From contig JBAYFM010000001.1 in the NCBI GenBank assembly GCA_041667185.1, positions 32,052 through 96,051 on the forward strand: a stretch of DNA of 64,000 nt. Reading direction: 5' to 3'. The notes beneath the pieces were generated by a model. The model worked only from the letters and a program-made list of their open reading frames with translations. It ran no database searches and was not told where the DNA came from. The position numbers and the translations under genes were made by a program. Below are positions 1 through 51,508 of this stretch, one piece after another; position 1 is the stretch's first letter; each line of letters begins with the position of its first letter. The DNA is from Patescibacteria group bacterium (GTDB lineage: Bacteria; Patescibacteriota; Patescibacteriia; SG8-24).

Positions 1-164
1 ACCCGGTCGGTTGGAGGTGGTCAAGCAACGCAAGAGGCGTCTGTGGATAGCTGAGTCAGGAGTCAGGCTTGCGGCGGCCGGTGATTTTGACAAAATAGCC
101 CTAAAGTGTTATGGTGATGACACTTTTATTGTCTAGCCCCAGGAGCGGGGATGAGCTCACATCT

Positions 165-908: not shown

Positions 909-909
909 T

Positions 910-1671: not shown

Positions 1672-1950
1672 AAAAAGCGGCTGCTTGAGTTAGCGCCACT
1701 TTTGCCGAAGAGATTCGAAGTTGGCTAGTTTTATGAGAGGTGGTAGTTAGCTACCACCGGGGCAGTGAGCCACCGGCCGTAGAAGCCAGCGTTGTCGTAT
1801 TGGAAAGAGCCACATTTTGCTACCCTCCGGTCCCCGGAGATGAAAAGGAGATACTGGTGTGGGGACCATGTTGTGAAGATCGTCGTCGACGACTTCCACA
1901 AGACGGCAATATAACATCAGTTCACCAACTTGTCAATAGTCACTGACAAT

Positions 1951-1982
1951 AAAACTCGCCCCCTCAGCAGGGGCGAGTTTGA
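1951..1982. terminator. Rho-independent terminator hairpin, bidirectional
   Basis: aaaactcgcccc-tcagca-ggggcgagttt: a perfect stem flanked by an A-run and a T-run. Confidence 0.55.
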
Positions 1983-2094
1983 TTGACCAGATGTTTTGAT
2001 CGCGATATTTTGAGTTTTTTCGAAGCTGATCCAGCTTGGGGCGTTCGCGGCCGGTTTAGGCGTTGTTTTCAAGACTCCCGCTCCGTGTTAATCT

Positions 2095-9208: not shown

Positions 9209-9211
9209 CCT

Positions 9212-9973
9212 ATGTTCCGCAACAAAGCCCATCACGAAGCCTCCAACCAGGCCGCGTTCTTCCTGCTTTTCGGTCTGGCCTTGTCCCTGGTCCTGCTTAG
9301 CGGCGTCCTGTGGCTCAGCGTCGGTTCGGGCATGGGAGCGAATAAAATCCTCGAGACCGGCGGGTCGGATCTGACGCGGTTATTGCCGCCCGGCTGGGCC
9401 GCCGTTGCCGGCTCGGAGGTCTCTTTTGACGACCCGGTTCGGCCGGCCCTGGTTTTCGCCGCCCGGCACGGACAGGCCGGAAGTTTGGAGCTGGCGGTCT
9501 GGGACCGGAAAGCCGGGGATTATCGCCTGGCTGCGCAGGTGGATTCCCGCCTGACCTCGCAGGTGGAATTGGAGGTTGCGGAGCTCGGCCAGGGGGCTGA
9601 GCAGGCGCTTTTGGCGACCGCACCGCTCGCTAATTTGAACGCCAAAGGGATTTTTTTTGCGGTGCGCAACGGCGACCGGCTGGAGATCGCGCGCATGAAG
9701 ACCGGGACCGGCCAAGTGCTGCCCGCCTTTTTTATTGACGGCTCCATTCCGAACGGCGATTCGCGGGTGGCTTTTTATGACGTGACCGGCGATGGTTTTG
9801 ACGAGGTGGTGGTCACGCGCCGGTCTTTCGGCGGCGCCGGCCCGGAGGCGTCCTGGGGCCGATCGGCGGATGTTTTCGAATGGAGCGGCGGCCTGTTCGT
9901 CTACGATCAGGAAATGAGCTGGGCTCTGACCAAGAGCGCGGAGGTTTTTCCGGAGCCGGCGGATCAGGAATAG
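9212..9973 (+). CDS. Membrane-anchored hypothetical protein with FG-GAP/VCBS-like motif
   Basis: N-terminal TM segment. Contains VTGDGFDEVVV (DxDGDG-like). Occupies the position immediately after ftsEX. Confidence 0.4.
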   Translation: MFRNKAHHEASNQAAFFLLFGLALSLVLLSGVLWLSVGSGMGANKILETGGSDLTRLLPPGWAAVAGSEVSFDDPVRPALVFAARHGQAGSLELAVWDRKAGDYRLAAQVDSRLTSQVELEVAELGQGAEQALLATAPLANLNAKGIFFAVRNGDRLEIARMKTGTGQVLPAFFIDGSIPNGDSRVAFYDVTGDGFDEVVVTRRSFGGAGPEASWGRSADVFEWSGGLFVYDQEMSWALTKSAEVFPEPADQE

Positions 9974-10043
9974 GCGCTTGACGCGGGACCGGTCAGACCA
10001 TAATCTGGTCTTTTGAGATCCGGCGGTCGATAGTCGTTTCAGC

Positions 10044-27123: not shown

Positions 27124-29481
27124 ATGGAAGCAGAAAAACCGCTTGATACGACCGCTCAGCCAGTTCATCTGGCCCGCACGCTCGGACCCGGATCCATCAT
27201 TTTCATGGGCATCGGCTGCCTGATCGGCGGCGGTATCTTCACTTTGCTCGGACCGGCCGCTGGTCTCGCCGGACCAGGACTTTTTCTCGCCATGATCCTC
27301 GGCTCCAGCGTGGCCTTCCTCAACTTGCAGATGTACCTGGCCTTGGGCACCACTTTTCCGGAGGCCGGCGGCGGTTATCTCTGGGTCCGCAAAGGGCTGG
27401 GCAACTTCCAGGGTTTCATGTCCGGCTGGCTCAGCTGGTTCGCCCACGCCGCGGCTTGCGGCACGTACGCCCTCAGCTTGGCCTACTACGGTTACGAACT
27501 ACTGCGCATGGTCGGCTTCGATCCGGGCATCAGCGTCGCTTCGTTCATGAAAGTCTTGGCCGTCGTCCTGATTCTGCTCTTCGGTTATCTTAACTGGCGC
27601 GGCACCAAGAGCATGGGTAACGCCGGCATCATCATCACCGGCGGCCTGCTGACCGTGCTCGCGGTTTTCATCGCAAGCGGTTTCGCCAAGATCGGGGCCG
27701 CGGCCCATCCACTCGCCAATTTTTCGCCGTTCCTGCCGAATGGTTTCTTTGGCGTCATCGCGGCCACGGCGTTTTTCTATATCGCCTTCGAGGGTTCGGA
27801 GATCCAGGTCCAGGCCGGCGAGGAAACAAAGAATCCGGAACGCGACCTGAAGGTCGGGCTGATCACTTCCTGGGCCGTCGTCTCGATCCTGTACATCCTG
27901 GTCAGTTTCGTCGTGATCGGCGCCACGCCGGCGGAGGGCGGAGCGGTCCATAAGGTGTTGAGCGGCTTCGGCGAAGGCGCGATCGTCCGCGCGGCCGAAG
28001 CCTTCATGCCCTGGGGCGCCGTCCTCATGACCATCGGCGGCTTTTTGGCCAATCTCGCCGCCCTGAACGCGACGATCTTTTCGGCCAGCCACGTCGCCTT
28101 TGCCATGGCCCGCGACAACAACATCTGGTCCCGGATGTCCCGCGTCCATCTGAAGAACTTCACGCCGGATCTGGCGGTCATCGTCTCGACTCTGCTCGTC
28201 TCCGTCATGGTCGTGGCCCTGCCACTCTTCGATGTCGCGAGCGCGGCCTCGCTGCTGTTCGTGCTCCTGTTCCTGCAGTTGAACCTCGCCGGCATCACCA
28301 TCCACCTCAAGTTTCCGGACATACGCTGGAAATATCGCATCCCGTTCTTTCCGGTCACGCCGCTCCTCGCCATCGTGCTGTATGTCTTCCTGGCCGCGAC
28401 GATGCTCCAGACCAACCTGACCGCTTGGCTCGTGACGATGGTCTGGATACTTTTGGGCCTCGTCAATTATTTCGCCTACGCCGCGCGCAAGGGCCGCGAG
28501 CAGTTCGAGGCCGAGATCGTCTACGAGGAACAGGTCCGTATCGGTCCGAAGACCGGCCAGCGGCTCCTGTTGCCGATCATGCCGACCGCGACCTTCGAAG
28601 ATATCGCCAAGCGCCTGGAGACCGCCGTGGTCATCGCTAGCCGCATGAAAGGGGAGATCATCATCCTCATGGTCCACGAGGTGCCGCAGCCGCTGATGCT
28701 GCTCGACGGCGCGACGATGACCCATGACCGCCAGATGCTCGACAATATCAAGCGCTGGGTCGAAGAGTTCAATGAAAAGACCCCCGGCCTCGATCATGAC
28801 ATCAATTTCCACAACCTGGTCATGGTCGGACGCGATATCACCGACACGATCCTGGAGGTCGTGAAGATGGAGGATTGCGACCTGCTGATGCTCTCCTGGA
28901 AGGGTTACACCCGGGTCAAGGGCACGGTCTTCGGCAGCAAGATCGACCGTATCCTGCGGGAGGCTCATTGCGATCTTCTGGTCCTCAAGGATCCGCAGCC
29001 GGTGAGTTCGATCATCTTGGCCGCGAATCCCAAGGGCAAGAATCCATCATTGAAACTGATCGGCGAGATCTACTCGGCGCTCAACGCCCAATACCATCCC
29101 AAGACCGAGCTGTTCTGCGTCCTGGGCAAAGAGGTGCCGGTCTATCTCAAGACCGACCCGACGGCGGTGCTCGGCGGTTTGGGTCTTCAAAAACAGGATG
29201 TCCAGGATATCAAGTTCACGAGTTCCAGTTCCATCACCAAGGCACTGATCGAAGAAGTGGACAGCGTCAGCGCCGACTTGGTCATTGTCGGGGCTTCCAA
29301 ACCCAAGTTCCTCAAAGACATCCGTTTCGGCCGGATCCCGGAGTCGCTGGCCAAACATCTTGAAGGCTCGTCGCTCATGATCGTCAAAGCCCACCAGACG
29401 GTGGCCGAGGCTTTCGGCGAGCGGTTGCGCGATTTCCTGGCGCGCCGGCCGAAGAATCTGCCGCCCGCGCCGCCTGTTTAG
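27124..29481 (+). CDS. APC-family amino acid permease fused to two C-terminal UspA (universal stress protein) domains
   Basis: About 12 TM helices over the first 440 aa. Two Usp-like modules follow (…IIILMVHEV… and …LVIVGASKPKF…). Confidence 0.8.
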   Translation: MEAEKPLDTTAQPVHLARTLGPGSIIFMGIGCLIGGGIFTLLGPAAGLAGPGLFLAMILGSSVAFLNLQMYLALGTTFPEAGGGYLWVRKGLGNFQGFMSGWLSWFAHAAACGTYALSLAYYGYELLRMVGFDPGISVASFMKVLAVVLILLFGYLNWRGTKSMGNAGIIITGGLLTVLAVFIASGFAKIGAAAHPLANFSPFLPNGFFGVIAATAFFYIAFEGSEIQVQAGEETKNPERDLKVGLITSWAVVSILYILVSFVVIGATPAEGGAVHKVLSGFGEGAIVRAAEAFMPWGAVLMTIGGFLANLAALNATIFSASHVAFAMARDNNIWSRMSRVHLKNFTPDLAVIVSTLLVSVMVVALPLFDVASAASLLFVLLFLQLNLAGITIHLKFPDIRWKYRIPFFPVTPLLAIVLYVFLAATMLQTNLTAWLVTMVWILLGLVNYFAYAARKGREQFEAEIVYEEQVRIGPKTGQRLLLPIMPTATFEDIAKRLETAVVIASRMKGEIIILMVHEVPQPLMLLDGATMTHDRQMLDNIKRWVEEFNEKTPGLDHDINFHNLVMVGRDITDTILEVVKMEDCDLLMLSWKGYTRVKGTVFGSKIDRILREAHCDLLVLKDPQPVSSIILAANPKGKNPSLKLIGEIYSALNAQYHPKTELFCVLGKEVPVYLKTDPTAVLGGLGLQKQDVQDIKFTSSSSITKALIEEVDSVSADLVIVGASKPKFLKDIRFGRIPESLAKHLEGSSLMIVKAHQTVAEAFGERLRDFLARRPKNLPPAPPV

Positions 29482-29499
29482 CAGTTTCAGCCTGTGGTA

Positions 29500-29513
29500 T
29501 AATTTTGTCGGCT
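29500..29513 (+). promoter_or_regulatory. Extended -10 promoter (tgtggTATAAT) for the hydrogenase operon
   Basis: cctgtggtataatttt lies about 30 nt upstream of the ferredoxin gene ATG. Confidence 0.45.
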
Positions 29514-29544
29514 TTAAATAATCTTTTTTAAACGTGAAAAAACT

Positions 29545-29823
29545 ATGGCTGCTCGCAAGATCGCCAAAGTCGAGGTCAAACGCGACCTCTGCATCGGGGC
29601 TTCGCCCTGCGTCATCGCCGCTCCGGGCGCGATGGAACTCGACGCCGACAACAAGGCTGTCTACAAACTCAAGGACGGCCAGCGCCTGTCCGGTCCGGTC
29701 GAGCGCGCGCTTCTCGAGGACCCGACCGTCGACGACGACACGCTTCTGACCGCGGCCCAGTCCTGCCCGGTCAAAGCGATCTATCTTTACGACGAAGAGG
29801 GGAAGCAGATCTTCCCGGAATAA
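29545..29823 (+). CDS. Small ferredoxin (single-cluster, Fer4_13/15-like)
   Basis: CIGASPCV...SCPVKAI cysteine pattern in a 92-aa protein. First gene of the operon. Confidence 0.5.
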   Translation: MAARKIAKVEVKRDLCIGASPCVIAAPGAMELDADNKAVYKLKDGQRLSGPVERALLEDPTVDDDTLLTAAQSCPVKAIYLYDEEGKQIFPE

Positions 29824-29832
29824 TCTTCGGCT

Positions 29833-31071
29833 ATGGCCGAAACCCGTTATCTCATCATCGGCGGCGGGGTCGCGGGGACCACGGCCGCCGATACCATTCG
29901 TAAACAGGACGCGACTGGCGCGATCACGATCGTCTCCGACGAGCCGTACCGGTTCTATTCGCGTATCATGATCTCCAAGCTGCATTATTTCCTGGGGAAG
30001 GTTCCGGCCGACCAGATCTGGCTGAAAAAAGAGGAATGGTATCGCGATAATCGCGTGAATCTGATCGCTGGGCGCACGGCCGCGAAACTGGATACGGCCG
30101 CCAAGACGGTGATCCTCGATGACGGCACGATGCTCGGCTATGACAAATTACTCCTGGCCATCGGCATCCGCGCCCGGCGCTGGACTGTGCCTGGTTCCGA
30201 CAAACAGGGTATACATTACGTCCGGACGCTCGACGACTTCAAGGGCATCACGGCCGATGTGAAGACTGCCAGACAGGCGGTCGTGATCGGCGGCGGCGCC
30301 ATCGGTTTCGAGGTCTGCGAACTTTTCCAAGCTTCCGGCCTCGACACCACGCTCGTGATCCGCGAACCGCATTACTGGGATCCGGTGCTTGACGCCGGTT
30401 CCGGCCAGATGATCGAGAAAGCCCTGGAGAAGGCCGGCGTGAAGATCGTGCGCGGCAAATATGTGACTGAAGCCTACGGCGGCGAGCGGGTCGAGGGCGT
30501 CATCCTGGAGAGTGGCGAAAAACTTCCCTGTCAGATCGTTTCGGTCGGCATCGGCGGCGTCTGCCCGCTCGATTTCGCGAAAGCCGCCGGCCTCGCGACC
30601 AACCGTGGCCTCGTCGCCAACGAATATCTCGAGACCAGCGCGCCGGACATCTGGGCGGCGGGGGATTGCGCTGAGTACCAGGACCTGATCTTCGGCGAGC
30701 GGACGCAGTTCGGCAGCTGGAGCAACGCCCAGTCGCAGGGTCGCACCGTCGGCGCCAACATGTCCGGACGCCATGAACCCTACCGCCTCGTGACCTTCTA
30801 TGCCGTGAGCGGTCTTGGCTTGAGCATCGCCTTCATCGGCTCCGTGGCGCCGCCCGGCGCCGGCCGCGACGTCGTACCGCGCGGATCGCCGGAGGCTAAT
30901 TCCTACGCTCGGCTGCTCCTCAAGGACAACCGCATCGTCGGCGCGACCCTCATGAACCGCACCGCGGACATCGGTCCGATCTCGAAACTCATCGAGAAAC
31001 AGACGGACGTCGCCGGCCGCTACTCGGAGCTCGCGGACACGAATTTCGATCTCAAATCGCTTTTGTCGTAA
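29833..31071 (+). CDS. FAD/NAD(P)-dependent pyridine-nucleotide-disulfide-type oxidoreductase (ferredoxin/rubredoxin reductase-like)
   Basis: YLIIGGGVAGTTAAD (FAD-binding GxGxxG), a second Rossmann fold VVIGGGAIGFEV and GDCAEY. Confidence 0.75.
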   Translation: MAETRYLIIGGGVAGTTAADTIRKQDATGAITIVSDEPYRFYSRIMISKLHYFLGKVPADQIWLKKEEWYRDNRVNLIAGRTAAKLDTAAKTVILDDGTMLGYDKLLLAIGIRARRWTVPGSDKQGIHYVRTLDDFKGITADVKTARQAVVIGGGAIGFEVCELFQASGLDTTLVIREPHYWDPVLDAGSGQMIEKALEKAGVKIVRGKYVTEAYGGERVEGVILESGEKLPCQIVSVGIGGVCPLDFAKAAGLATNRGLVANEYLETSAPDIWAAGDCAEYQDLIFGERTQFGSWSNAQSQGRTVGANMSGRHEPYRLVTFYAVSGLGLSIAFIGSVAPPGAGRDVVPRGSPEANSYARLLLKDNRIVGATLMNRTADIGPISKLIEKQTDVAGRYSELADTNFDLKSLLS

Positions 31072-31083
31072 CCGACATTTTTT

Positions 31084-31578
31084 ATGGCCGCCACCGAACA
31101 GCCCAAGATCCGCATCGGCTGGTTCTCTTTCTCCTGTTGCGAGGACAGCACGATCGTTTTCACGGAACTCCTGAACGACCACTGGCAGGAGTGGAAGAAG
31201 ATCTTCGATTTTCGCCACGCCCGCGTCCTGAAGACGAAGAACGTGCTCGATGAGATGGATATTGCCTTCATCGAAGGAGCCATCGCGTCGGACAAGCAGG
31301 CCAAGGAAGCCGAGGAGATCCGCGCCTTGTCCAAAGTCGTCGTGGCCGTCGGCGCCTGCGCTTGCACCGGCATGCCTTCGGCCCAACGCAACGCTTTCAC
31401 CGACGAGCAGAAGCAGGAGATCGAATTCCTGCTCGCGCGTTTCGCCGCCTCGCCCAAGGTCCGCAAACTCTCCGAGGTGATCAAGGTGGATGCCGAGGTC
31501 GGCGGCTGTCCGATGGATCCGAAAAAATTCCTCGCCGCGGTCGACCAGCTGGTCGGCCAGTTCCGGGGCGCTAAGTAG
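31084..31578 (+). CDS. [NiFe] hydrogenase small subunit, NuoB-like minimal type
   Basis: SCCEDS, GACACTG and GGCPMDP match the NuoB/PSST proximal-cluster pattern (CCxxE ... GxCxxxG ... GCP). 164 aa. Confidence 0.7.
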   Translation: MAATEQPKIRIGWFSFSCCEDSTIVFTELLNDHWQEWKKIFDFRHARVLKTKNVLDEMDIAFIEGAIASDKQAKEAEEIRALSKVVVAVGACACTGMPSAQRNAFTDEQKQEIEFLLARFAASPKVRKLSEVIKVDAEVGGCPMDPKKFLAAVDQLVGQFRGAK

Positions 31579-31586
31579 AACCGGTT

Positions 31587-32879
31587 ATGCATACTTTCGA
31601 CCTGAGTCTCGAACACGTCACCAAGGTGGAGGGCGCCGCGAACGTCAACGTCAAAGTGAAAGACGGCAAAGTGGAGTCGGTCCGCTACGAGATCGCCGAG
31701 TTCAAGCGCTTCTACACGCGCGGCATCGAGGGCAAGCCGCTCATGGCCATCCCGCAGCTCCTGGCGCGTATCTGCGGCACCTGCTCGAACGCACATCTCC
31801 TGTGCGCCATCGAAGCCTGCGAGCACGCGCTCGATCTACAGCCTACGCCGCAGACCATGCTGCTCCGCGAGCTCACCATGTGCGGGCTCAACATCCGTGA
31901 CCACGCGCTGCATCTCTATCTGTTCGTCTTGCCGGACATCGTCGGCAAGGACGCATTGCTGGAGTTCGACGAGAACGACCCGGTCCAGCATCAGATGCTG
32001 CACGACGCTTTCGACATCAAGGCCGCCGGCAATTTCCTGGCCGAGCTCGTGGCCGGACGTTCCGTCCATGCGGTCTATCCGACGCTCGGCGGCTTCCTGA
32101 AGTTCCCGGACAAGGCCGGCGTGGAAAAAGCGATCAAACTGCTCGAGTCGGTCCGTCCGGCGGTCCTGCGCACGGTCGAGATCTTCGAAAAAGCGCCATT
32201 CCATCTGGATCGCAAGACCAATTACATGGCGCTCGTGCCCAAGGATCATTTCGGATTCATTGACGGCGAGATCCATGACAGCTTCGGCCACGTCGTGCCG
32301 GAGTCCGGCTTCCGCGATCATCTTGAACACGTCGTCCTGCCGTATTCGCAGGCTTCGGCTTACAAACATGAAGGCAAATCCTACATGGTCGGGTCGCTCG
32401 CGCGCCTGAATCTGGCCAAGGACCTGCTGCACGCGAAGACGAAAGAGTCGCTCAAGGAAACACTGAAACTCTTCCCCTCGACCGACATCTTCTACAACAA
32501 TCTGGCTCAGGCCATCGAGATCCTGCACTGCCTCGACCGGGCCGTGGACGTCCTGAAGACCGTCGAGTTCAAGGCTGAACCGCTGGTGCGCATGCCGAAC
32601 AAGGCTGGCGTTGGCATCGGCGTCGTCGAAGCGCCGCGCGGCACGCTCTATCATCGCGTGGAGACCGACGAAAAGGGGAATGTGGTCAGAGGCGAGGTCA
32701 TCGTGCCCACCAACCAGAACCAGGTGAACATCGAGGAGGATGTTTGGAAGCTCATCCAGGACAACCTGGACAAGATGAGCCAGGAAGAGATGATCCACGA
32801 AATGGAGAAACTCGTCCGCGCCTACGACCCGTGCATGTCCTGCGCCGCGCACTTCCTGAAGTTGAAGTGGGAGGAGTAG
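31587..32879 (+). CDS. [NiFe] hydrogenase large subunit (soluble, group 3-like)
   Basis: N-terminal RICGTCSNAH (RxCGxCxxxH) and C-terminal DPCMSCAAH (DPCxxCxxH), followed by an 8-aa tail FLKLKWEE. Confidence 0.85.
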   Translation: MHTFDLSLEHVTKVEGAANVNVKVKDGKVESVRYEIAEFKRFYTRGIEGKPLMAIPQLLARICGTCSNAHLLCAIEACEHALDLQPTPQTMLLRELTMCGLNIRDHALHLYLFVLPDIVGKDALLEFDENDPVQHQMLHDAFDIKAAGNFLAELVAGRSVHAVYPTLGGFLKFPDKAGVEKAIKLLESVRPAVLRTVEIFEKAPFHLDRKTNYMALVPKDHFGFIDGEIHDSFGHVVPESGFRDHLEHVVLPYSQASAYKHEGKSYMVGSLARLNLAKDLLHAKTKESLKETLKLFPSTDIFYNNLAQAIEILHCLDRAVDVLKTVEFKAEPLVRMPNKAGVGIGVVEAPRGTLYHRVETDEKGNVVRGEVIVPTNQNQVNIEEDVWKLIQDNLDKMSQEEMIHEMEKLVRAYDPCMSCAAHFLKLKWEE

Positions 32880-32949
32880 CCTGATCCGCCCGCATCTTAG
32901 AATCATGACGACCGCGCCGCTGGCGCGATCGTTTTAGTCTTCGCCGGCG

Positions 32950-33002
32950 GTCCGGCGCTTGACAGCTTTTCGTTCGCGATCCATAATGGATAATGATTAT
33001 CC
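32950..33002 (+). promoter_or_regulatory. Promoter (TTGACA-17-CATAAT) overlapped by a Fur/PerR-type box
   Basis: cttgacagcttttcgttcgcgatccataatggataatgattatcc. The element gataatgattatc matches the Fur-box core. Confidence 0.6.
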
Positions 33003-33014
33003 ACAAGGAATAAT

Positions 33015-33431
33015 ATGCCAATGAGTCCCAGCGAGATCGCGATCAGGGTGAAGCGCTTCGAGGCCGAGTGCCGGCGCCGCCGCCTGCCGCTCACGCCGCA
33101 GAAACGCGCTGTCTTCGAGGCTGTCGCCTCGACCGACCGCCATCCTACGGCGCAGGAGCTCCACGTCGCGATCCGCCGGCGGCTGCCCGATCTGTCCTTC
33201 GCTACGGTCTATAAGAATCTGGCTCTGCTCTCCAGCCTCGGCCTCGTCCGCGAGTTCCGGATCGGCGGGGGAGTCTCCCGGTTCGACGCGAACACCGGCG
33301 TCCACGCGCATGTCTATAGCCTCGGCTCGGACACGCTCCGGGACGCGGATGTTCGCGGGCCGTTGCCGCTCCCCAAAGGAGTGAAGGCTGGTTCGGTCGA
33401 CAGCATCCTCTTGGTCTATTACGTCCATTAA
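33015..33431 (+). CDS. Fur-family metalloregulator (PerR/Fur-like)
   Basis: Fur-family winged helix (TPQKRAVFEAVASTDRHPTAQELH). Sits upstream of a peroxiredoxin gene behind a Fur box. Confidence 0.75.
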   Translation: MPMSPSEIAIRVKRFEAECRRRRLPLTPQKRAVFEAVASTDRHPTAQELHVAIRRRLPDLSFATVYKNLALLSSLGLVREFRIGGGVSRFDANTGVHAHVYSLGSDTLRDADVRGPLPLPKGVKAGSVDSILLVYYVH

Positions 33432-33446
33432 CGCATCAGCGAAAAT

Positions 33447-33974
33447 ATGTTGATCCTAGGAAAACCCGCGCCGGATTTCAAGGCCGTACCGGCCTACCAG
33501 ACCGGCGAATTCCGTTCCGTCAGCCTGTCCGAATATCGCGGGCATTGGCTCGTCCTGTTCTTTTATCCGCGCGATTTCACTTTCGTCTGCCCGACGGAAT
33601 TACGCGGATTCGCCGCGCACGAGCATGAATTCGAGAAGCTCGGCGCCAAGATCGTCGCCGCCTCGACCGATTCTCAGTGGTCGCATAAGGCCTGGTTCGA
33701 GCGCGACCTGCCGGAGGTGAAGTATCCGGTCCTGGCCGATACGGCGCTCAAACTCGCCGATGCTTACGGTGTCTTGAATGCCGATGATGGTTCCGCGGAG
33801 CGCGGACTCTTCATCATCGATCCGGAGGGGATCGTGCGCTACATCGTCGTATCGGCCTCGGCGGTCGGCCGTTCGGTGACCGAGACCCTGCGCGTCCTGC
33901 AGGCCCTGAAGAGCGGCGGACTTTGCCCGCTCGACTGGAAGGACGGAGAAAAAACGCTCGGCAAAGCCAAATAA
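33447..33974 (+). CDS. 2-Cys peroxiredoxin (AhpC/TSA family)
   Basis: FTFVCPTE peroxidatic-Cys motif with conserved Prx spacing. Confidence 0.85.
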   Translation: MLILGKPAPDFKAVPAYQTGEFRSVSLSEYRGHWLVLFFYPRDFTFVCPTELRGFAAHEHEFEKLGAKIVAASTDSQWSHKAWFERDLPEVKYPVLADTALKLADAYGVLNADDGSAERGLFIIDPEGIVRYIVVSASAVGRSVTETLRVLQALKSGGLCPLDWKDGEKTLGKAK

Positions 33975-34082
33975 GGGTTTTGCCAAAATGCTTGTCGTGA
34001 GACCGGTGATTGGGCCGCTAGCGGCCGGTCATCGGCGACCCGTTGCTTCGGCTCGGGTCGAAAGGTTAAATTCATCTATCTT

Positions 34083-34499
34083 ATGAAACATAGTTTTGTC
34101 TTGTTAGGGGTACTCGCCGGCTCCGTACTTTTAGTTGGCGCCGGTTGTGCCGGCCAGACAACGGTCAGGACGCAAACAACGGAGCGTCCGGCGGCCGTTG
34201 CCGCTCTATCCGTCCCTCCGGCAGCCAATGCGCCGGATCAAGCTTCAGCGAGGGAAATCACTGCGGCTGAGGTCGCGAAACATAAGACGCCGGATGATTG
34301 TTGGCTCGCCATCAACGGCATCGTCTACGATGTTTCCGGTTACGCCACGAAGCATCCCGGCCGGGAGGCGGTCTACGCCGGTTGCGGTCGGGACGCGACG
34401 GTCCTTTTCGAGACCCGTCCGATGGGTTCCGGAACGCCGCATTCGGACAAGGCCAGGGCTTACATGAAGAATTACGAGATCGGAACGTATAAGCCGTAG
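34083..34499 (+). CDS. Secreted/membrane-anchored cytochrome b5-like heme-binding domain protein
   Basis: N-terminal signal/TM. Cyt-b5 core EVAKHKTPDDCWLAINGIVYDVSGYATKHPG. Confidence 0.6.
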   Translation: MKHSFVLLGVLAGSVLLVGAGCAGQTTVRTQTTERPAAVAALSVPPAANAPDQASAREITAAEVAKHKTPDDCWLAINGIVYDVSGYATKHPGREAVYAGCGRDATVLFETRPMGSGTPHSDKARAYMKNYEIGTYKP

Positions 34500-34579: not shown

Positions 34580-34951
34580 TCAGCCATTCATCAGCGAATT
34601 TCGGATGAAGTCGAGCGCTTTCCGCAGCTCTATGCCTGGCGGCAGGCCGATGATGCGGAGATTTTTCAGTCGTCCGAGTTTTTGCAGCCATTTCAGGTTG
34701 GCGTAGGCGTCGAAGTCATGCGTAGTGAGGCGTGGCGCGGCGGCGAAGGCGTCCAGGGAAGCGAAGATGCGCGGTTCGGCGATGCCGACGACTGTGTCGA
34801 TGACGGTCAGTTCCGACGGCACCTCCCACTCTTCATTCGGATCTTTTATTTCAAAAACAACGTCCGGTCGGAGTTTTTGGAGTTCTGGAATAAGTTTCAG
34901 CGGCAGGGAATCTTCCGGTAGGTCGGGATTTCCGAAAATATAGACGATCAT
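34580..34951 (-). CDS. [NiFe] hydrogenase maturation endopeptidase (HybD/HoxW/HycI family, peptidase A31)
   Basis: Starting at ATG 34951, MIVYIFGNPDLPEDSLPL..LTVIDTV..TTHDFDAYANLKWLQKLG..LRIIGLPPG aligns with HybD. The three metal-ligand positions (E, D, H) are conserved. Confidence 0.65.
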   Translation of the reverse strand: MIVYIFGNPDLPEDSLPLKLIPELQKLRPDVVFEIKDPNEEWEVPSELTVIDTVVGIAEPRIFASLDAFAAAPRLTTHDFDAYANLKWLQKLGRLKNLRIIGLPPGIELRKALDFIRNSLMNG

Positions 34952-34994: not shown

Positions 34995-35351
34995 TTATCC
35001 GACCTGTTTAGCAAGTGCCGCCAGTCCAGCGCAAAGACCCTCATAGCGGCAGATCAATCCGGCCGCCTCGGTTTCTGATAAGAATCCCAGGTCTTTGGCC
35101 AGGAGAAGAAAGTATTCGGTTTCTTTCGCCGACCCGCGAGCGATGGAAAGGAAATTTTTGAACTCTTTTTTACCGGAACGTCCGTAGCCTTCAGCGATAT
35201 TGGCGCCGACTGATGTTGTTGAGCGTCGAATCTGTTGTGTAAGTCCGAATCTTTCTGTCATCGGAAAGGAGCTGGTGACCCGGTAGATCGACAAGGACAA
35301 GGCGCGGGCCTCTTTCCAGACGCGAAGGTTGCGGTGAGCACTATCGGTCAT
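34995..35351 (-). CDS. Four-helix-bundle protein (TIGR02436; the 23S rRNA intervening-sequence-protein family)
   Basis: NLRVWKEARALSLSIYRVTSSFP...RSTTSVGANIAEGYGR...SAKETEYFLLLAKDLGF: diagnostic family motifs. About 118 aa from the ATG at 35351. Confidence 0.75.
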   Translation of the reverse strand: MTDSAHRNLRVWKEARALSLSIYRVTSSFPMTERFGLTQQIRRSTTSVGANIAEGYGRSGKKEFKNFLSIARGSAKETEYFLLLAKDLGFLSETEAAGLICRYEGLCAGLAALAKQVG

Positions 35352-35394
35352 ACGCCGCCGGACGTTGCCCCACCTGTCTAAAATAGTCAAATCT

Positions 35395-35430
35395 CCGGCA
35401 CTCCAGAACTTCAGTACTTCAGCACTTGGT
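35395..35430. repeat. R1-family repeat copy
   Basis: ccggcactccagaacttcagtacttcagcacttgg, the inverse of the 34953 copy. Confidence 0.5.
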
Positions 35431-36161
35431 CAGATCGTCTTATTGGCGAGGGCAATGTGTTGTAGAGTGTATTTCCTCAATTGGGCCGCCTGCGCTTCGG
35501 AAATCACCTCGCAGGGCACGCCCCAGTGGACGCTCACGAGTTCGCCAGGCTGGATCTGTTCGATGTCCGAGCGCGCCTCGAGGCTGCGCCGGACCTGGCG
35601 TTTCGCCGGCTCGCCGAGCGCCAGTTTACCGCTGATCAAGAGCAGTGGTTCGGTCTCGATCATGATATTCGGACCGTCAACTTCCAGCACTTTGCCCCAG
35701 CTGATGCGGCATTCTTCCATGCTCTCGAGCGTGTGGGCGATCGGTAAATGCCCGGTCCGCTTCCAGATGTCGAGTACGTGGAAGGAGTGATGCGGCATGG
35801 CACCCTTGGCGATCTTGTCCTCGACCAGTTCGAACGAACGCGCATCAAGTTTCTTTTTCATCTGCAGGTTCTCGGCCAGGTGGCGGTGCAACCGTTGTTT
35901 GCCGACATTCTCCAGAAGTTCGTTGCCGATCCAGTAAGCCTCGACCACGCGGTCGTCGAAGGGGTCGCGGACACCGTTCGCGGCGGCGATAGTCGCGAGA
36001 TAGGGGAACATCGTGGCGAAACCGCGCATCAGCGCCGCAAGTCCGGGATCGGTCGCACCTTCGTTGATGTACGCCAAAATCTCCTGATTGGCGTCAGGTC
36101 CGCAATAATGCAGGCGATTCGGTCCGAAAGCGTAGCGGCTGCAGCGGAGCACTCCGTCCAT
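35430..36161 (-). CDS. Conserved hypothetical protein
   Basis: 243-aa ORF (RCSRYAFGPNRLHYCGPD...) with no family assignable from sequence alone. Confidence 0.35.
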   Translation of the reverse strand: MDGVLRCSRYAFGPNRLHYCGPDANQEILAYINEGATDPGLAALMRGFATMFPYLATIAAANGVRDPFDDRVVEAYWIGNELLENVGKQRLHRHLAENLQMKKKLDARSFELVEDKIAKGAMPHHSFHVLDIWKRTGHLPIAHTLESMEECRISWGKVLEVDGPNIMIETEPLLLISGKLALGEPAKRQVRRSLEARSDIEQIQPGELVSVHWGVPCEVISEAQAAQLRKYTLQHIALANKTI

Positions 36162-36269: not shown

Positions 36270-36746
36270 ATGACAACTGAAAAATATCTTAAGATCGCCC
36301 TGCCCCTCACGCTCGCCGGCGTCCTGTTCTCCGGCTATCTGAGCGGCATCAAGTTCTTCAGCGGCATCTGCGCCTTCAAAGAAGCCTGTCCGACCTTCCT
36401 TGGATATCCGGCCTGTTATTATGGCTTCGCGATGTTCTCGACCATGTTCGTCGCCACGGTCATCGCTTTCGCCAAGAAAGCCGCCGGCCGCTGGCCGATC
36501 AGGCTGAACCTGATCGTGTCCGTCATGGGCATGATCTTCTCCGGCTCCTTCACGGTGCGCGAGATGGCGGTCTGGTTCACCGAGGGCTTCAAGTCGTTCG
36601 GCCTCCTCGGACTCTCGACCTGCGCCTATGGTTTCGTTTTCTTCATCATCGTCTTCGTTTTCTCGCTGGTTTCCTGTCTGAAGCGGGTCGCCTCCGACAA
36701 AGCCGCGGCTCCGGTCGTTCCGCCGCCAGCACCGCCGCAGGCCTAG
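36270..36746 (+). CDS. Small polytopic membrane protein, Cys-containing
   Basis: About 4 TM helices; Cys residues in the first loop (ICAFKEACPTF). A TTGAAC-17-TATACT promoter is upstream. Confidence 0.4.
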   Translation: MTTEKYLKIALPLTLAGVLFSGYLSGIKFFSGICAFKEACPTFLGYPACYYGFAMFSTMFVATVIAFAKKAAGRWPIRLNLIVSVMGMIFSGSFTVREMAVWFTEGFKSFGLLGLSTCAYGFVFFIIVFVFSLVSCLKRVASDKAAAPVVPPPAPPQA

Positions 36747-50197: not shown

Positions 50198-50607
50198 TGG
50201 GAATACGTATGAAGTTAAAAAAGATCTCGTATTCAAAATTGAATTCAAGGCAGCGAGAAAATTATAATTTTCAAAAAATTGCCGCGAAATTGGCGGATTA
50301 TGGGTTCAATGCAGTTCGGTTGAGCGATGACTGGCAGGGCGCAGATGCTGTGGCTATCCATGTCGACCAAAAAACTTTTTTGAAAGTCCAGGTTAAGGGT
50401 AGATTTTCGTTCGACAAAAAATATATCGGTAAAAATATCTGGATAGCATTTCATGATAAGGACACAGACACGTATTATCTTTATAATCATGACCGTTTGC
50501 TTAAGAAGCTCCCCGATGTTTTTCGTTATGTGAGTAGGAAAGGGAGTCGAAATACGCCGCATATTTCCGCGGAACATAGACGGGTGTTGGAAGAGTATAA
50601 ATTTTGA
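50197..50607 (+). CDS. Small AT-rich PD-(D/E)xK-fold (UPF0102/YraN-like) nuclease-like protein
   Basis: GADAVAIHVDQKTFLKVQVKGRFS resembles the YraN core GEIDLI..D..LVFVEVKTRRS, with Q in place of the catalytic E. The start overlaps the upstream stop (TAATG). Lys-rich and visibly AT-rich. Confidence 0.4.
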   Translation: MGIRMKLKKISYSKLNSRQRENYNFQKIAAKLADYGFNAVRLSDDWQGADAVAIHVDQKTFLKVQVKGRFSFDKKYIGKNIWIAFHDKDTDTYYLYNHDRLLKKLPDVFRYVSRKGSRNTPHISAEHRRVLEEYKF

Positions 50608-50662
50608 GCGAATCAAGAAAAAAGCCGTCCCGGAGCCGGGGCGGCTTTTTTGCGCGAGCGCG

Positions 50663-51508
50663 TCAGGATTTCAGCGCGGCGTCGATGACGTCGGCGATGG
50701 CCTGATCGCGGCGAATCTGGAGTTCGACTTGCTTTTTCGAGATCAGCACCAACGCATCGGCAGCCTTTTGGCGGATCTCGGCGAGGCCTGAGCCGGCTTC
50801 AGCGAGCCGGTTCAGGTTCAGGAGGCTCAGGAAGTCGAAGTTGCCGTTGAGACTGAGATCGAAGATCAGATCGAGCGTGTCGTCCGGGAGGGTCAGTTCG
50901 ACCTCGATCTTGGCGGCCGTGTCGGCCAGATCGCGGTACTTGTCCAGTTCTTCCTGGAAGTGGCGCAGTCGGCGGTTGACCCGCTGGATCGCTTTCTTGG
51001 CTTCCTCGGTCTCGATATGAGAGAGGGCGCTGACCATCTTGCTCTTCGAGAACAGATCGAACGTCTCGCAATTCGAGGCTTTGTCGACCTCTCGCACGGC
51101 CGTGCTGATGGCGTGGAGCAGACTCTCGGCTGTTGTCGCAGCGTTTGTCGCCAGGATATGGGCGGCGTTCAGACGGGCGAAGTCCGGATCTGTTTTGGCG
51201 AGGTGGTCGATTGCCGCTTTTTTGGCCAGTTCAGCCGCGGTCTCGATCTCTTGCGTGTAGCGCAGAGCGAGTTTGTCGGTCTCGACGGCCTCCGCGACGG
51301 TCCGCTGATAGTCCGCGGTCAACCCTCTGTTGCCGCCGAACCAGCCGGCCAGATACTTCTCGCGAAAACCCATCTTCGAGCGCAGTGCGTCGAGTTCGTT
51401 CTTCAGGCGCGAGCGGTGGCCTTCAGCGCGTTTGAGTTTGCGGCGATATTCTTTTTGGGCGTCGGTCAGCTCCCAGATCCGGCGGCAGAAATCAGCTGTG
51501 AATTCCAT
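50663..51508 (-). CDS. Hypothetical coiled-coil protein
   Basis: AAGGAGG lies 5 nt before ATG 51508. Predicted helical protein; no family assignable. Confidence 0.4.
   Translation of the reverse strand: MEFTADFCRRIWELTDAQKEYRRKLKRAEGHRSRLKNELDALRSKMGFREKYLAGWFGGNRGLTADYQRTVAEAVETDKLALRYTQEIETAAELAKKAAIDHLAKTDPDFARLNAAHILATNAATTAESLLHAISTAVREVDKASNCETFDLFSKSKMVSALSHIETEEAKKAIQRVNRRLRHFQEELDKYRDLADTAAKIEVELTLPDDTLDLIFDLSLNGNFDFLSLLNLNRLAEAGSGLAEIRQKAADALVLISKKQVELQIRRDQAIADVIDAALKS

What the first reader, a model, noticed from the sequence alone, without database searches (positions are those of the whole stretch)
29500..32879. Compact four-gene soluble [NiFe] hydrogenase operon with an unusual electron-transfer module
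The operon encodes, in order, a ferredoxin (92 aa), a pyridine-nucleotide-disulfide-type FAD oxidoreductase (412 aa), a NuoB-like small subunit (164 aa) and a large subunit (430 aa). It uses a ferredoxin-reductase module instead of HoxFU/HydBG-type diaphorase subunits. The large subunit has both Ni-binding motifs, RxCGxCxxxH and DPCxxCxxH, plus a short 8-residue C-terminal tail. The small subunit has only the proximal-cluster Cys pattern (CCxxE...CxC...GCP). Canonical cytoplasmic group 3 enzymes use a NuoF/NuoE-like or FNR-like diaphorase. Here a putidaredoxin-reductase-like flavoprotein plus a tiny ferredoxin appear to connect H2 oxidation or evolution to NAD(P)(H). That may represent an undescribed modular variant. 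A single extended -10 promoter (tgtggtataat) precedes the operon.
Basis: partly seen in the sequence, partly recalled or inferred. Interest (0 to 1): 0.65.

Follow-up and report, generated by a model that had tools for sequence, protein, structure and literature searches.

The report
Patescibacterial hydrogenase with ferredoxin-reductase module
A real four-gene operon from an ultra-small (Patescibacteria/CPR) bacterium encodes a stripped-down nickel-iron hydrogenase that appears to trade electrons with NADH through a small ferredoxin and a ferredoxin reductase instead of the usual subunits. The gene set was noticed in 2020 as the 'hyd2' clade, but its function has never been tested.

Summary
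Four tightly packed + strand genes (29545-32879) encode a 3-Cys ferredoxin, a putidaredoxin-reductase-type FAD/NAD flavoprotein, a 164-aa small subunit with the proximal cluster only, and a 430-aa [NiFe] large subunit with both Ni-binding motifs and an 8-residue tail.

The window comes from a Patescibacteria MAG. The enzyme matches the CPR-specific, group-3b-related 'hyd2' clade of Jaffe et al. 2020 by its features. That paper reported the 164-aa small subunit and nearby PF07992 and Fe-S proteins, and left the function open. 'Undescribed' is therefore wrong.

A survey of 81 related loci gave these results:
- The reductase sits directly upstream of the small subunit in at least 32 loci.
- In one locus the reductase is fused to the small subunit.
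- In a derived clade the pair is separated from the hydrogenase genes only by an inserted 2-oxoacid:ferredoxin oxidoreductase plus acyl-CoA synthetase cassette.
- In a minority of loci the reductase is missing.

A minimal maturation endopeptidase (34580-34951, -) and a HypC-fusion protein, DUF6390 (35430-36161, -), are almost always nearby.

Best reading: a reversible NADH- and ferredoxin-linked hydrogenase with a non-canonical diaphorase. This is plausible but untested.

The parts
29495..29503 (+). Extended -10-like promoter motif TGgTATAAT, 41 nt upstream of the ferredoxin ATG
   Evidence: Read directly from the sequence. The consensus scan found no -35 element. A similar TGTTATAAT is kept in the closest relative L009, but not in the other 30 loci checked. 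Function is unverified.
29545..29823 (+). Single-cluster ferredoxin, 92 aa, with the CxxAxxC...SCP motif ([3Fe-4S] type, three Cys ligands)
   Evidence: Pfam Fer4_15 7.6e-10 and Fer4_13. The nearest solved structures are the D. africanus Fd I, B. thermoproteolyticus Fd and P. furiosus Fd. The second Cys of their CxxCxxC motif is Ala here. C16, C22 and C74-P75 are invariant, and there is no fourth Cys in any of 21 relatives.
29833..31071 (+). FAD/NAD(H) ferredoxin reductase of the putidaredoxin-reductase/BphA4 type, 412 aa; the proposed diaphorase subunit
   Evidence: Pfam Pyr_redox_2 1.8e-55, Pyr_redox and Reductase_C. Best PDB matches are 3fg2, 3lxd, BphA4, TodA and putidaredoxin reductase. 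The best NCBIfam match is PadH, below its cut-off. GGGxAG...E37 and G153...E178 (Glu in 37/38) are conserved and there is no CxxxxC. The stop codon lies -8 to +16 nt from the small-subunit start in most compact loci, and the two genes are fused in L042.
31084..31578 (+). Truncated [NiFe]-hydrogenase small subunit, 164 aa, with the proximal [4Fe-4S] cluster only
   Evidence: Pfam Oxidored_q6 3e-19. It aligns to residues 12-158 of the 266-aa P. furiosus SHI delta subunit, so the domain carrying the medial and distal clusters is absent. The conserved Cys are C18, C19, C92 and C142. The N-terminus has no twin-arginine signal (read directly from the sequence).
31587..32879 (+). [NiFe]-hydrogenase large subunit, 430 aa, group-3b-related CPR 'hyd2' clade
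   Evidence: Pfam NiFeSe_Hases. NCBIfam ShyA scores 253 bits and HydA 235 bits, both far below their cut-offs of 700 and 880. Best PDB matches are group 3b enzymes at about 1e-65 (T. kodakarensis 5yxy, P. furiosus 9nez), against 1e-43 for Mvh and 4e-30 for the NAD-reducing SH. The protein is 100% identical to an NCBI 'Patescibacteria group bacterium' protein. Both Ni-binding motifs and the HFLK tail are invariant.
32913..32927 (+). G+C-rich hairpin with a short T-run after hydL; a possible operon end
   Evidence: Terminator-like site. It is followed by a TTGACA-17-CATAAT promoter-like site at 32959-32987 in front of the Fur-family gene. Neither is verified.
34580..34951 (-). Minimal hydrogenase maturation endopeptidase, 123 aa (the true start is M32 of the 154-aa ORF); no Pfam hit and annotated 'hypothetical'
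   Evidence: Called as a 123-aa gene on the public contigs. It is present in 32 of 33 related loci that have at least 5 kb downstream of hydL. G7-N8, D14, D52 and H78-D79 are invariant. The AF2 model has pLDDT 85.9. The top Foldseek PDB hits are HybD 1cfz (6.7e-6), 2kml, HycI 2e85/2i8l and 5ttx. Sequence-only searches were negative.
35430..36161 (-). DUF6390, 243 aa: an N-terminal Cys/His-rich helical domain fused to a C-terminal HypC-like OB domain; a putative maturation chaperone

Best explanation
The operon encodes a cytoplasmic, CPR-specific ('hyd2') relative of group 3b [NiFe]-hydrogenases, with a non-canonical electron-transfer module.

Shown:
- The large subunit keeps all four Ni/Fe-binding cysteines.
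- The large subunit has a conserved 8-residue tail.
- The small subunit keeps only the proximal-cluster domain.

Inferred:
- Electrons pass between the proximal [4Fe-4S] cluster and NAD(H) through a putidaredoxin-reductase-type FAD flavoprotein that acts as a hydrogenase subunit.
- The three-Cys ([3Fe-4S]-type) ferredoxin serves as a relay between cluster and flavin, as a branch point to ferredoxin-dependent enzymes such as 2-oxoacid:ferredoxin oxidoreductase, or as both.
- The enzyme is probably reversible. It could serve as a redox valve (NADH or reduced ferredoxin to H2) during fermentation, or as a source of NADH from H2.
- Maturation uses a dedicated minimal endopeptidase, which presumably removes the tail, and a HypC-domain protein (DUF6390). 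Both are encoded just downstream on the opposite strand.
For: Identity:
- Domain content.
- Best solved relatives are group 3b alpha and delta subunits.
- 100% identity to Patescibacteria proteins.
- The small subunit is 164 aa, the same as the mean reported for hyd2, and it lacks beta and gamma subunits as hyd2 does.

Linkage of the reductase to the hydrogenase, from 81 non-redundant loci:
- At least 32 loci have the reductase directly upstream of the small subunit.
- Junctions are -8 to +16 nt in most of these, and overlap in several.
- In L042 the reductase and small subunit form one 620-aa ORF joined by a Pro/Ala/Ser linker.
- Of 24 loci with at least 8.4 kb upstream, 21 carry the reductase.
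- Reductase distances track large-subunit distances (Spearman 0.63). The small subunit gives 0.73 and DUF6390 gives 0.57.
- Compact loci form the basal grade of the large-subunit tree.

Flavoprotein type:
- FAD and NAD Rossmann motifs are present, with Glu178 at the end of the second beta-strand. There is no redox disulfide.
- Nearest structures are ferredoxin- or putidaredoxin-reducing reductases.
- The best NCBIfam match is PadH, and a PDB match is AorC (8c0z_E). Both are FAD subunits that link ferredoxin-type enzymes to NAD (their role is from my own knowledge).

Ferredoxin link:
- In 22 loci forming one derived clade, a two-subunit OFOR plus an ADP-forming acyl-CoA synthetase lies between the ferredoxin-reductase pair and the small and large subunit genes.

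Maturation.
Against: - No biochemical data exist for any member, and no multimer model could be run.
- The ferredoxin is absent next to the reductase in 6 of 25 compact loci.
- Three loci with about 10 kb of upstream sequence, and five with less, have neither ferredoxin nor reductase. The small and large subunit pair can therefore exist without a co-located module.
- A [3Fe-4S] cluster is usually less reducing than the H+/H2 couple (my own knowledge). This would favour H2 uptake over H2 evolution, so the direction is open.
- The distance correlation could partly reflect shared vertical descent.
- NADH versus NADPH preference rests on one motif residue.
Confidence: 0.6

Rival explanations
1. 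The small/large subunit dimer is a ferredoxin-dependent, H2-evolving hydrogenase. Its physiological donor is ferredoxin reduced by 2-oxoacid:ferredoxin oxidoreductase. The flavoprotein is a free-standing ferredoxin:NAD+ oxidoreductase that balances the two pools, not a hydrogenase subunit.
For: - In 22 loci an OFOR alpha/beta plus ADP-forming acyl-CoA synthetase cassette lies next to the small and large subunit genes. In those loci the ferredoxin-reductase pair is several kb away, beyond the opposite-strand cassette.
- Loci without any reductase exist.
- The ferredoxin is a separate small protein of the kind that shuttles between enzymes.
Against: - The reductase is fused to the small subunit in L042, and the two genes overlap or abut in most compact loci.
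- Six compact loci keep the reductase but have no ferredoxin.
- Compact loci are basal in the tree and the OFOR cassette is a derived insertion.
- The window itself has no OFOR or acyl-CoA synthetase in 64 kb.
Confidence: 0.25
2. The complex is an electron-confurcating or bifurcating hydrogenase. The FAD of the Pyr_redox_2 subunit combines electrons from NADH and from reduced ferredoxin to make H2, and splits them in reverse.
For: - Both an NAD-type flavoprotein and a ferredoxin are encoded with the enzyme.
- OFOR, a source of reduced ferredoxin, is co-located in a large clade.
- Flavoproteins of the same superfamily are bifurcating in NfnAB and HdrA (my own knowledge).
- A bifurcating role has been proposed for canonical CPR 3b enzymes (PMC10811913).
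Against: - The flavoprotein's closest relatives are simple one-flavin ferredoxin reductases with no Fe-S domains of their own.
- Only two clusters exist besides the active site (proximal 4Fe-4S and 3Fe-4S), so two separate electron paths are not evident.
- The ferredoxin is dispensable in some loci.
Confidence: 0.08
3. It is a sulfhydrogenase in the manner of P. furiosus SHI, reducing S0 or polysulfide with H2 or NAD(P)H, as is often assumed for CPR 'group 3b' annotations.
For: - The large subunit's best named matches are the sulfhydrogenase alpha subunits ShyA and HydA.
- Several database entries name its relatives 'sulfhydrogenase subunit alpha'.
Against: - The beta (AsrA/HydB-like) and gamma (HydG) subunits are absent from the operon and from the 64-kb window.
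- Scores are far below the equivalog cut-offs (253 against 700).
- Jaffe et al. found these subunits only with hyd1, not hyd2.
Confidence: 0.04
4. The ferredoxin and reductase are neighbours by chance, or serve another process such as oxidative-stress defence. The window has Fur/PerR, a peroxiredoxin and cytochrome b5 immediately downstream.
For: Fur-family, AhpC-TSA and Cyt-b5 genes lie at 33015-34499, between hydL and the endopeptidase gene.
Against: - That trio is specific to the window's own contigs and did not appear among the top 45 recurrent neighbour families of 82 loci.
- The reductase adjacency, the fusion and the co-divergence hold across the family.
Confidence: 0.03

Closest known systems
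[quoted passage not shown] 2020, BMC Biol 18:69, PMC7304191)
   Same: - Same organismal group.
- Small subunit of 164 aa, equal to the reported mean.
- No beta or gamma subunits.
- A PF07992 flavoprotein and a small Fe-S protein nearby.
- A HypC-like family nearby.
By these features the window operon is a member. I did not place its sequence in their tree.
   Different: Nothing structural differs. The paper reported the PF07992 and Fe-S families only for 'some' or 'a subset' of members and left the function uncertain. The survey here adds the frequencies, the fusion, the OFOR cassette, the endopeptidase and the DUF6390 fold.
Group 3b NAD(P)-linked hydrogenase / sulfhydrogenase (P. furiosus SHI, T. 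kodakarensis Hyh)
   Same: - Closest solved large subunit (about 1e-65) and small subunit (about 6e-13).
- Cytoplasmic.
- Large subunit of about 430 aa with a short C-terminal tail.
- Presumably linked to a nicotinamide cofactor.
   Different: - The small subunit lacks the roughly 100-residue domain that carries the medial and distal clusters.
- There is no HydB or HydG homologue. A glutathione-reductase-fold ferredoxin reductase and a 3-Cys ferredoxin take their place.
- Scores are far below the NCBIfam equivalog cut-offs.
Group 3d NAD-reducing soluble hydrogenase (HoxFUYH; H. thermoluteolus 5xf9) and the NiFe-HydABCSL enzyme (7t2r)
   Same: - It works in a similar way. Their short small subunits (189 and 179 aa in the matched chains) carry only the proximal cluster (my own knowledge) and hand electrons to a separate flavin- and NAD-binding module.
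   Different: - Their diaphorase is NuoF/NuoE/NuoG-like (FMN plus several Fe-S clusters). Here it is an unrelated FAD ferredoxin reductase.
- Large-subunit similarity is much lower (4e-30 and 5e-38).
Class I three-component electron-transfer chains (putidaredoxin reductase-putidaredoxin, BphA4-BphA3, and the R. palustris reductase 3fg2, which I recall as PuR)
   Same: - The flavoprotein shares their fold, motifs and C-terminal domain.
- It is encoded next to a small ferredoxin, as in those systems.
   Different: - The terminal partner is a hydrogenase, not a P450 or a Rieske dioxygenase.
- The ferredoxin is a 3-Cys Fer4_15 type rather than a [2Fe-2S] type.
FAD 'adaptor' subunits PadH (phenylglyoxylate:NAD+ oxidoreductase) and AorC (A. 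aromaticum tungsten aldehyde oxidoreductase, 8c0z_E)
   Same: - PadH is the best NCBIfam match (2.5e-65), and 8c0z_E is a PDB match at 1.4e-37.
- Both are PF07992-type subunits that make a ferredoxin-type enzyme NAD-linked (my own knowledge). The same role is proposed here.
   Different: - The score is below the PadH equivalog cut-off (221 against 475).
- The catalytic partners are unrelated to hydrogenases.

Membership tests
CPR hyd2 clade (Jaffe et al. 2020) | Large subunit related to group 3b, found in CPR/Patescibacteria | tested here: met
   Best PDB and NCBIfam matches are group 3b alpha subunits. The protein is 100% identical to an NCBI Patescibacteria protein, and its relatives come from Sungbacteria, Azambacteria, Kerfeldbacteria, WWE3 and Minisyncoccia. 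Placement in the authors' own tree was not reproduced.
CPR hyd2 clade (Jaffe et al. 2020) | Consistently truncated small subunit (mean 164 aa, against about 250 aa) | tested here: met
   The small subunit is 164 aa. It aligns only to residues 12-158 of the 266-aa SHI delta subunit.
CPR hyd2 clade (Jaffe et al. 2020) | No co-located beta (HydB) or gamma (HydG) subunits; PF07992 and Fe-S families nearby instead | tested here: met
   for the window; for relatives.
Canonical group 3b [NiFe]-hydrogenase (alpha-beta-gamma-delta) | Delta (small) subunit with three Fe-S clusters | tested here: not met
   Only C18, C19, C92 and C142 are conserved, and the C-terminal cluster domain is absent.
Canonical group 3b [NiFe]-hydrogenase (alpha-beta-gamma-delta) | Beta (AsrA/HydB-like Fe-S) and gamma (FNR-like FAD/NAD(P) plus 2Fe-2S) subunits | tested here: not met
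   No such genes were found in the operon, within 10 kb on either side, or among the other genes scanned in the 64-kb window.
Canonical group 3b [NiFe]-hydrogenase (alpha-beta-gamma-delta) | Large subunit reaches the curated family score | tested here: not met
   ShyA scores 253 bits against a cut-off of 700, and HydA 235 against 880. A HydDB classification could not be run.
Group 3d NAD-reducing hydrogenase (HoxEFUYH) | HoxF/HoxU (NuoF/NuoG-like) diaphorase | tested here: not met
   None is present in the window. Large-subunit similarity to 5xf9_D is only 3.6e-30.
Group 3d NAD-reducing hydrogenase (HoxEFUYH) | Small subunit with the proximal cluster only | tested here: met
   The feature is shared, but it is not sufficient for membership.
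Putidaredoxin-reductase-type ferredoxin-NAD+ reductases (PF07992 + PF14759) | FAD and NAD Rossmann motifs, C-terminal reductase domain, no redox-active disulfide | tested here: met
   Pyr_redox_2 1.8e-55 and Reductase_C 2e-8. GGGxAG...E37 and G153...E178 are conserved, with no CxxxxC. Full-length alignment to 3fg2, 3lxd, BphA4 and putidaredoxin reductase.
Putidaredoxin-reductase-type ferredoxin-NAD+ reductases (PF07992 + PF14759) | NAD(P)H-dependent reduction of a partner ferredoxin | not testable with these tools
   This needs an enzyme assay.
Single-cluster [3Fe-4S] ferredoxins (Fer4_15 / Fer4_13) | CxxXxxC...CP motif with a non-Cys residue at the second position | tested here: met
   C16-I-G-A-S-P-C22...S-C74-P, with three Cys only, in all 21 relatives. 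The cluster type itself needs EPR.
Hydrogenase maturation endopeptidases (HybD/HycI, PF01750) | HybD/HycI fold | tested here: met
   The 123-aa protein's AF2 model (pLDDT 85.9) has HybD, HycI and an archaeal hydrogenase peptidase as six of its seven best PDB matches.
Hydrogenase maturation endopeptidases (HybD/HycI, PF01750) | Acidic-Asp-His metal-binding triad | tested here: inconclusive
   D14, D52 and H78 are invariant and spaced as in HybD and HycI. Residue-by-residue structural equivalence was not extracted.
Hydrogenase maturation endopeptidases (HybD/HycI, PF01750) | Sequence match to the family profile | tested here: not met
   No Pfam or NCBIfam hit at E <= 0.01. A profile search against PDB sequences was negative.
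HypC/HupF chaperones | OB-fold with a conserved Cys and His that hold the Fe(CN)2CO group | tested here: met
   [not shown]
HypC/HupF chaperones | The essential Cys is residue 2 of a protein of about 75-90 aa | tested here: not met
   The Cys is internal (residue 151) and follows a 150-aa helical domain.

The most novel reading that the evidence does not exclude
hyd2 is a self-contained minimal hydrogenase system that deserves its own subgroup. Two readings are not excluded by the evidence:
- An FAD ferredoxin reductase plus a [3Fe-4S] ferredoxin replaces both the lost small-subunit clusters and the diaphorase. It may allow NADH and OFOR-derived reduced ferredoxin to be confurcated to H2.
- The NiFe cofactor is assembled with a reduced, non-canonical machinery. 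In this reading the Cys/His-rich N-terminal domain of DUF6390, fused to a HypC domain, takes over part of the HypC-HypD scaffold role in genomes that carry few or no other hyp genes.
Probability: 0.12. Interest if true: 0.8.

Novelty: new variant of a known kind. Interest (0 to 1): 0.45.

Why it matters
CPR/Patescibacteria are abundant in groundwater.

If the hyd2 enzymes are instead NADH- and ferredoxin-linked through a ferredoxin-reductase module, three things follow:
- Those annotations are wrong for a large share of CPR hydrogenases.
- The sulfur link disappears.
- In many members the enzyme sits in a simple pyruvate (2-oxoacid) to acetate + ATP + H2 fermentation module.

The system would also be one of the smallest NAD-linked [NiFe]-hydrogenases: two Fe-S clusters, one flavin and about 1100 residues. 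That makes it attractive for engineering. Its dedicated 123-aa protease and HypC-fusion protein offer a compact model for [NiFe] maturation.

Tried and rejected
- The genome-contig scan with a single protein returned only 2 loci, so the survey rests on metagenome contigs and four exact-match look-ups.
- Sequence-only searches for the 123-aa protein gave nothing: Pfam, NCBIfam and an HMM against PDB sequences. Only the fold search identified it.
- The afdb50 fold library was unavailable.
- DUF6390's N-terminal domain found no PDB relative among the rows listed.
- An HMM of the ferredoxin did not recover a hidden ferredoxin in the six compact loci that lack one. L001 has a Cys-rich 57-aa ORF there instead, and the others have nothing obvious.
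- Hyp genes were looked for in the window and among recurrent neighbour families. None appeared beyond the endopeptidase and the HypC-like proteins. Whole genomes could not be searched, so their absence from the organism is not established.
- The oxidative-stress reading of the Fur-AhpC-cyt b5 neighbours was rejected, because these genes are not recurrent near hyd2.
- The sulfhydrogenase reading was rejected for lack of beta and gamma subunits.
- The promoter motif is not conserved beyond the nearest relative.
- Literature searches for later functional work on hyd2 found nothing.

Full report
**1. What is in the sequence**

- 29545-29823: 92 aa.
- 29833-31071: 412 aa.
- 31084-31578: 164 aa.
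- 31587-32879: 430 aa.

The gaps between them are 9, 12 and 8 nt. The same four genes are called on two independent public contigs that carry identical sequence.

Pfam assigns them as follows:
- Ferredoxin: Fer4_15.
- Flavoprotein: Pyr_redox_2 + Pyr_redox + Reductase_C.
- Small subunit: Oxidored_q6.
- Large subunit: NiFeSe_Hases.

The large subunit has RICGTCSNAH (61-70) and DPCMSCAAH (414-422), followed by FLKLKWEE. All of these residues are invariant in 31 relatives.

The string tgtggtataat lies at 29493-29503, 41 nt before the first ATG. It is an extended -10 match without a -35 element. It is kept only in the closest of 31 related loci. A G+C-rich hairpin (32913-32927) and a strong promoter-like site (32959-32987) follow hydL. 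The four genes therefore look like one transcription unit, but this is unverified.

**2. Corrections of detail**

- The small-subunit N-terminal motif is S-C18-C19-E-D-S, not CCxxE.
- Against the P. furiosus SHI delta subunit, C19 aligns with the first Cys of CxxC, and the second Cys is Ser22.
- In 69 relatives, C18, C92 and C142-P are invariant and C19 is Cys in 62. C94 is Cys in only 14, so 'CxC' is not a family feature.
- The protein aligns to residues 12-158 of the 266-aa delta subunit. It therefore lacks the domain that carries the medial and distal clusters.
- The ferredoxin has three cysteines (CxxAxxC...SCP) in all 21 relatives. The Ala replaces the second Cys of the CxxCxxC motif in the nearest solved ferredoxins. 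This is the [3Fe-4S]-type pattern. That assignment rests on established knowledge of these ferredoxins and was not measured here.

**3. Whose gene is it, and is it known?**

The large subunit is 100% identical to an NCBI 'Patescibacteria group bacterium' protein. It has hundreds of relatives at 58-86% identity. The relatives that carry a source name are almost all from CPR lineages.

Its best solved relatives are group 3b alpha subunits (about 1e-65), well ahead of Mvh, Frh and the NAD-reducing SH. It falls far below the NCBIfam equivalog cut-offs.

Jaffe et al. 2020 (PMC7304191, read) split CPR 3b-related enzymes into hyd1 and hyd2:
- hyd1 has beta and gamma subunits.
- hyd2 has a small subunit truncated to a mean of 164 aa and no beta or gamma subunits.
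- hyd2 has a PF07992 family near 'some' members, an Fe-S family near 'a subset', and a family with HypC homology nearby.
- The authors wrote that 'its function remains uncertain'.

By all of these features the window operon is a hyd2 member. I did not place its sequence in their tree. The variant is therefore not undescribed. Four literature searches found no later functional work.

**4. Is the ferredoxin/reductase module co-conserved?**

I collected 88 loci, of which 81 are non-redundant, and searched their six-frame ORFs with the window proteins. Three architectures appear.

*Compact, as in the window.* The order is ferredoxin, reductase, small subunit, large subunit.
- 28 loci were classed automatically. 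Four more are evident.
- Among the 25 with enough upstream sequence, the ferredoxin is adjacent in 19.

*Expanded.* A minus-strand cassette of two-subunit 2-oxoacid:ferredoxin oxidoreductase plus ADP-forming acyl-CoA synthetase lies between the ferredoxin-reductase pair and the small and large subunit genes.
- 22 loci have this form.
- All 9 with enough upstream sequence have the reductase, and 8 have the ferredoxin.
- NifS and NifU genes often lie further upstream.

*Bare.* No module is within reach, and the upstream genes are unrelated.
- 3 loci with about 10 kb upstream are in this class, plus 5 with less.

Of 24 loci with at least 8.4 kb upstream, 21 carry the reductase.

In a neighbour-joining tree of the large subunit, compact loci form the basal grade. 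This grade includes the window's own clade. The expanded loci form one derived clade. Adjacency therefore looks ancestral.

Further linkage evidence:
- Reductase stop to small-subunit start distances are -8 to +16 nt in most compact loci.
- In L042 the two proteins form one 620-aa ORF joined by a Pro/Ala/Ser-rich linker, which is a natural fusion.
- Pairwise distances of the reductase track those of the large subunit (Spearman 0.63). This is comparable to the small subunit (0.73) and DUF6390 (0.57).

**5. What kind of flavoprotein?**

It aligns end to end with 3fg2 (deposited as a putative rubredoxin reductase), 3lxd, BphA4, TodA and putidaredoxin reductase.

Its sequence features:
- The FAD motif GGGxAG...E37 is kept.
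- The second Rossmann motif is kept, with Glu178 (37 of 38 sequences) at the end of the second strand. This is the usual mark of NADH rather than NADPH preference, and that reading is an inference.
- There is no redox disulfide.

The best NCBIfam match is PadH, and a PDB match is AorC. In my own knowledge, both are FAD subunits that make ferredoxin-type enzymes NAD-linked. That is the role proposed here.

**6. The system is larger than the finding**

*Endopeptidase.* On the opposite strand downstream lies a 123-aa gene (34580-34951; the 154-aa ORF starts too early).
- It is present in 32 of 33 loci that have at least 5 kb downstream.
- It has no Pfam, NCBIfam or PDB-sequence match.
- Its invariant residues are G7-N8, D14, D52 and H78-D79.
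- Its AF2 model (pLDDT 85.9) has HybD, HycI and an archaeal hydrogenase peptidase as its best PDB matches.
- It is most likely the endopeptidase that removes the 8-residue tail.

*DUF6390.* This 243-aa gene (35430-36161) is present in 26 of 33 such loci.
- It is as conserved as the large subunit.
- The invariant C151 and H212 sit in HypC-like motifs.
- The N-terminal 150-residue helical domain carries invariant C7, C20, H124, H125 and H128. It has no listed PDB relative.

*Second HypC-like protein.* Expanded loci carry a second, shorter protein directly after hydL. Its C-terminus aligns to the DUF6390 HypC-like domain, with hhalign probability 86% and E 4.7e-6.

*Other hyp genes.* No HypA, B, D, E or F was seen among the window genes scanned or among recurrent neighbours. 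Whole genomes could not be examined.

**7. Mechanism**

Shown:
- Domain content.
- Conserved ligands.
- Loss of the medial and distal cluster domain.
- Genomic coupling.
- The fusion.

Inferred:
- H2 is split or made at the NiFe site.
- Electrons pass through the single proximal cluster.
- They then go either directly or through the [3Fe-4S] ferredoxin to the FAD of the reductase, and on to NAD+.
- The ferredoxin also connects to OFOR where that enzyme is co-encoded.
- The direction is open.

I put 0.6 on this model. The rivals are:
- 0.25: the reductase is a free ferredoxin:NAD+ oxidoreductase beside a ferredoxin-dependent hydrogenase.
- 0.08: a confurcating scheme.
- Very little on sulfhydrogenase activity or chance adjacency.

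**8. Verdict**

The enzyme is not a canonical group 3b or 3d member, because defining subunits were tested and not met. It works most like a 3d-type NAD-linked enzyme, but with a non-homologous diaphorase.

It belongs to the already reported hyd2 clade. The novelty therefore lies in the functional reading and in the added comparative evidence, not in the existence of the variant. Interest is moderate.

Noticed in passing
window 34580-34951 (-): A 123-aa gene annotated 'hypothetical', with no Pfam hit, is a minimal HybD/HycI-like hydrogenase maturation endopeptidase by predicted fold and conserved D/D/H residues. It is almost universal next to hyd2 large subunits (32 of 33 loci).
   Followed up: yes
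[not shown]
   Followed up: yes
L027, L036, L045, L047, L050, L057, L066, L073, L078, L081 (about 2-6 kb upstream of hydL): In one derived hyd2 clade, a minus-strand cassette of two-subunit 2-oxoacid:ferredoxin oxidoreductase plus ADP-forming acyl-CoA synthetase is inserted between the ferredoxin-reductase pair and the small and large subunit genes. NifS and NifU often lie further upstream. Together these form a compact oxoacid to acid + ATP + H2 module.
   Followed up: partly
L042 779-2638 (+): A natural fusion of the ferredoxin reductase and the hydrogenase small subunit in one 620-aa ORF, joined by a Pro/Ala/Ser-rich linker.
   Followed up: partly
L076 7167-7625 (+) and 12 other loci with the OFOR cassette, directly after hydL: A second family of about 150 aa (LFLRYAWPC...HHGHxGxC...). 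Its C-terminus aligns to the HypC-like domain of DUF6390 (hhalign probability 86%). It is absent from the window.
   Followed up: partly
window 33015-34499 (+): Fur/PerR-family regulator, peroxiredoxin (AhpC-TSA) and secreted cytochrome b5-like genes are inserted between hydL and the endopeptidase gene. A near-consensus TTGACA-17-CATAAT site precedes them at 32959-32987. They are not recurrent in other hyd2 loci.
   Followed up: partly
window 34995-35390 (-): A 131-aa 23S_rRNA_IVP (four-helix-bundle) family gene sits between the endopeptidase and DUF6390 genes, which are usually adjacent or overlapping elsewhere.
   Followed up: no
window 27124-29481 (+); also L046, L052, L058: A 785-aa amino-acid permease fused to universal stress protein (Usp) domains lies directly upstream of the operon. 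The same family recurs upstream of hyd2 genes in 6 loci. These include loci where it abuts the small subunit with no ferredoxin or reductase, as if the pair had been deleted.
   Followed up: partly
L052 4640-7220; L012 about 8835-9985: Extra DNA lies between the small- and large-subunit genes in some relatives: two ORFs of 568 and 319 aa in L052, and about 1.1 kb in L012. These may be mobile insertions that split the structural genes.
   Followed up: no
L001 4072-4242 (+): Where the ferredoxin is missing upstream of the reductase, this Sungbacteria locus has a 57-aa Cys-rich ORF (CxxC...FCCKECC...CEFC) of unknown nature.
   Followed up: no
L008 (contig CAYPMU010000043.1): A 7.7-kb contig with an 83% identical hyd2 operon is filed in a MAG labelled 'uncultured Gammaproteobacteria'. 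This is probably a binning error rather than a non-CPR host.
   Followed up: no
window 1-2000 and 50248-50670: Two stretches have much lower G+C than the rest. The first 2 kb has 0.44 against about 0.60 and contains a TrmB-family regulator at 105-905. The second is a low-GC 141-aa ORF with no Pfam hit. Both may be foreign DNA.
   Followed up: no
window 36270-36746 (+); L001, L003: Small membrane proteins recur beside DUF6390 in several loci (VKOR-like, DoxX and EamA families). One database protein (P0304) is an EamA-DUF6390 fusion.
   Followed up: no
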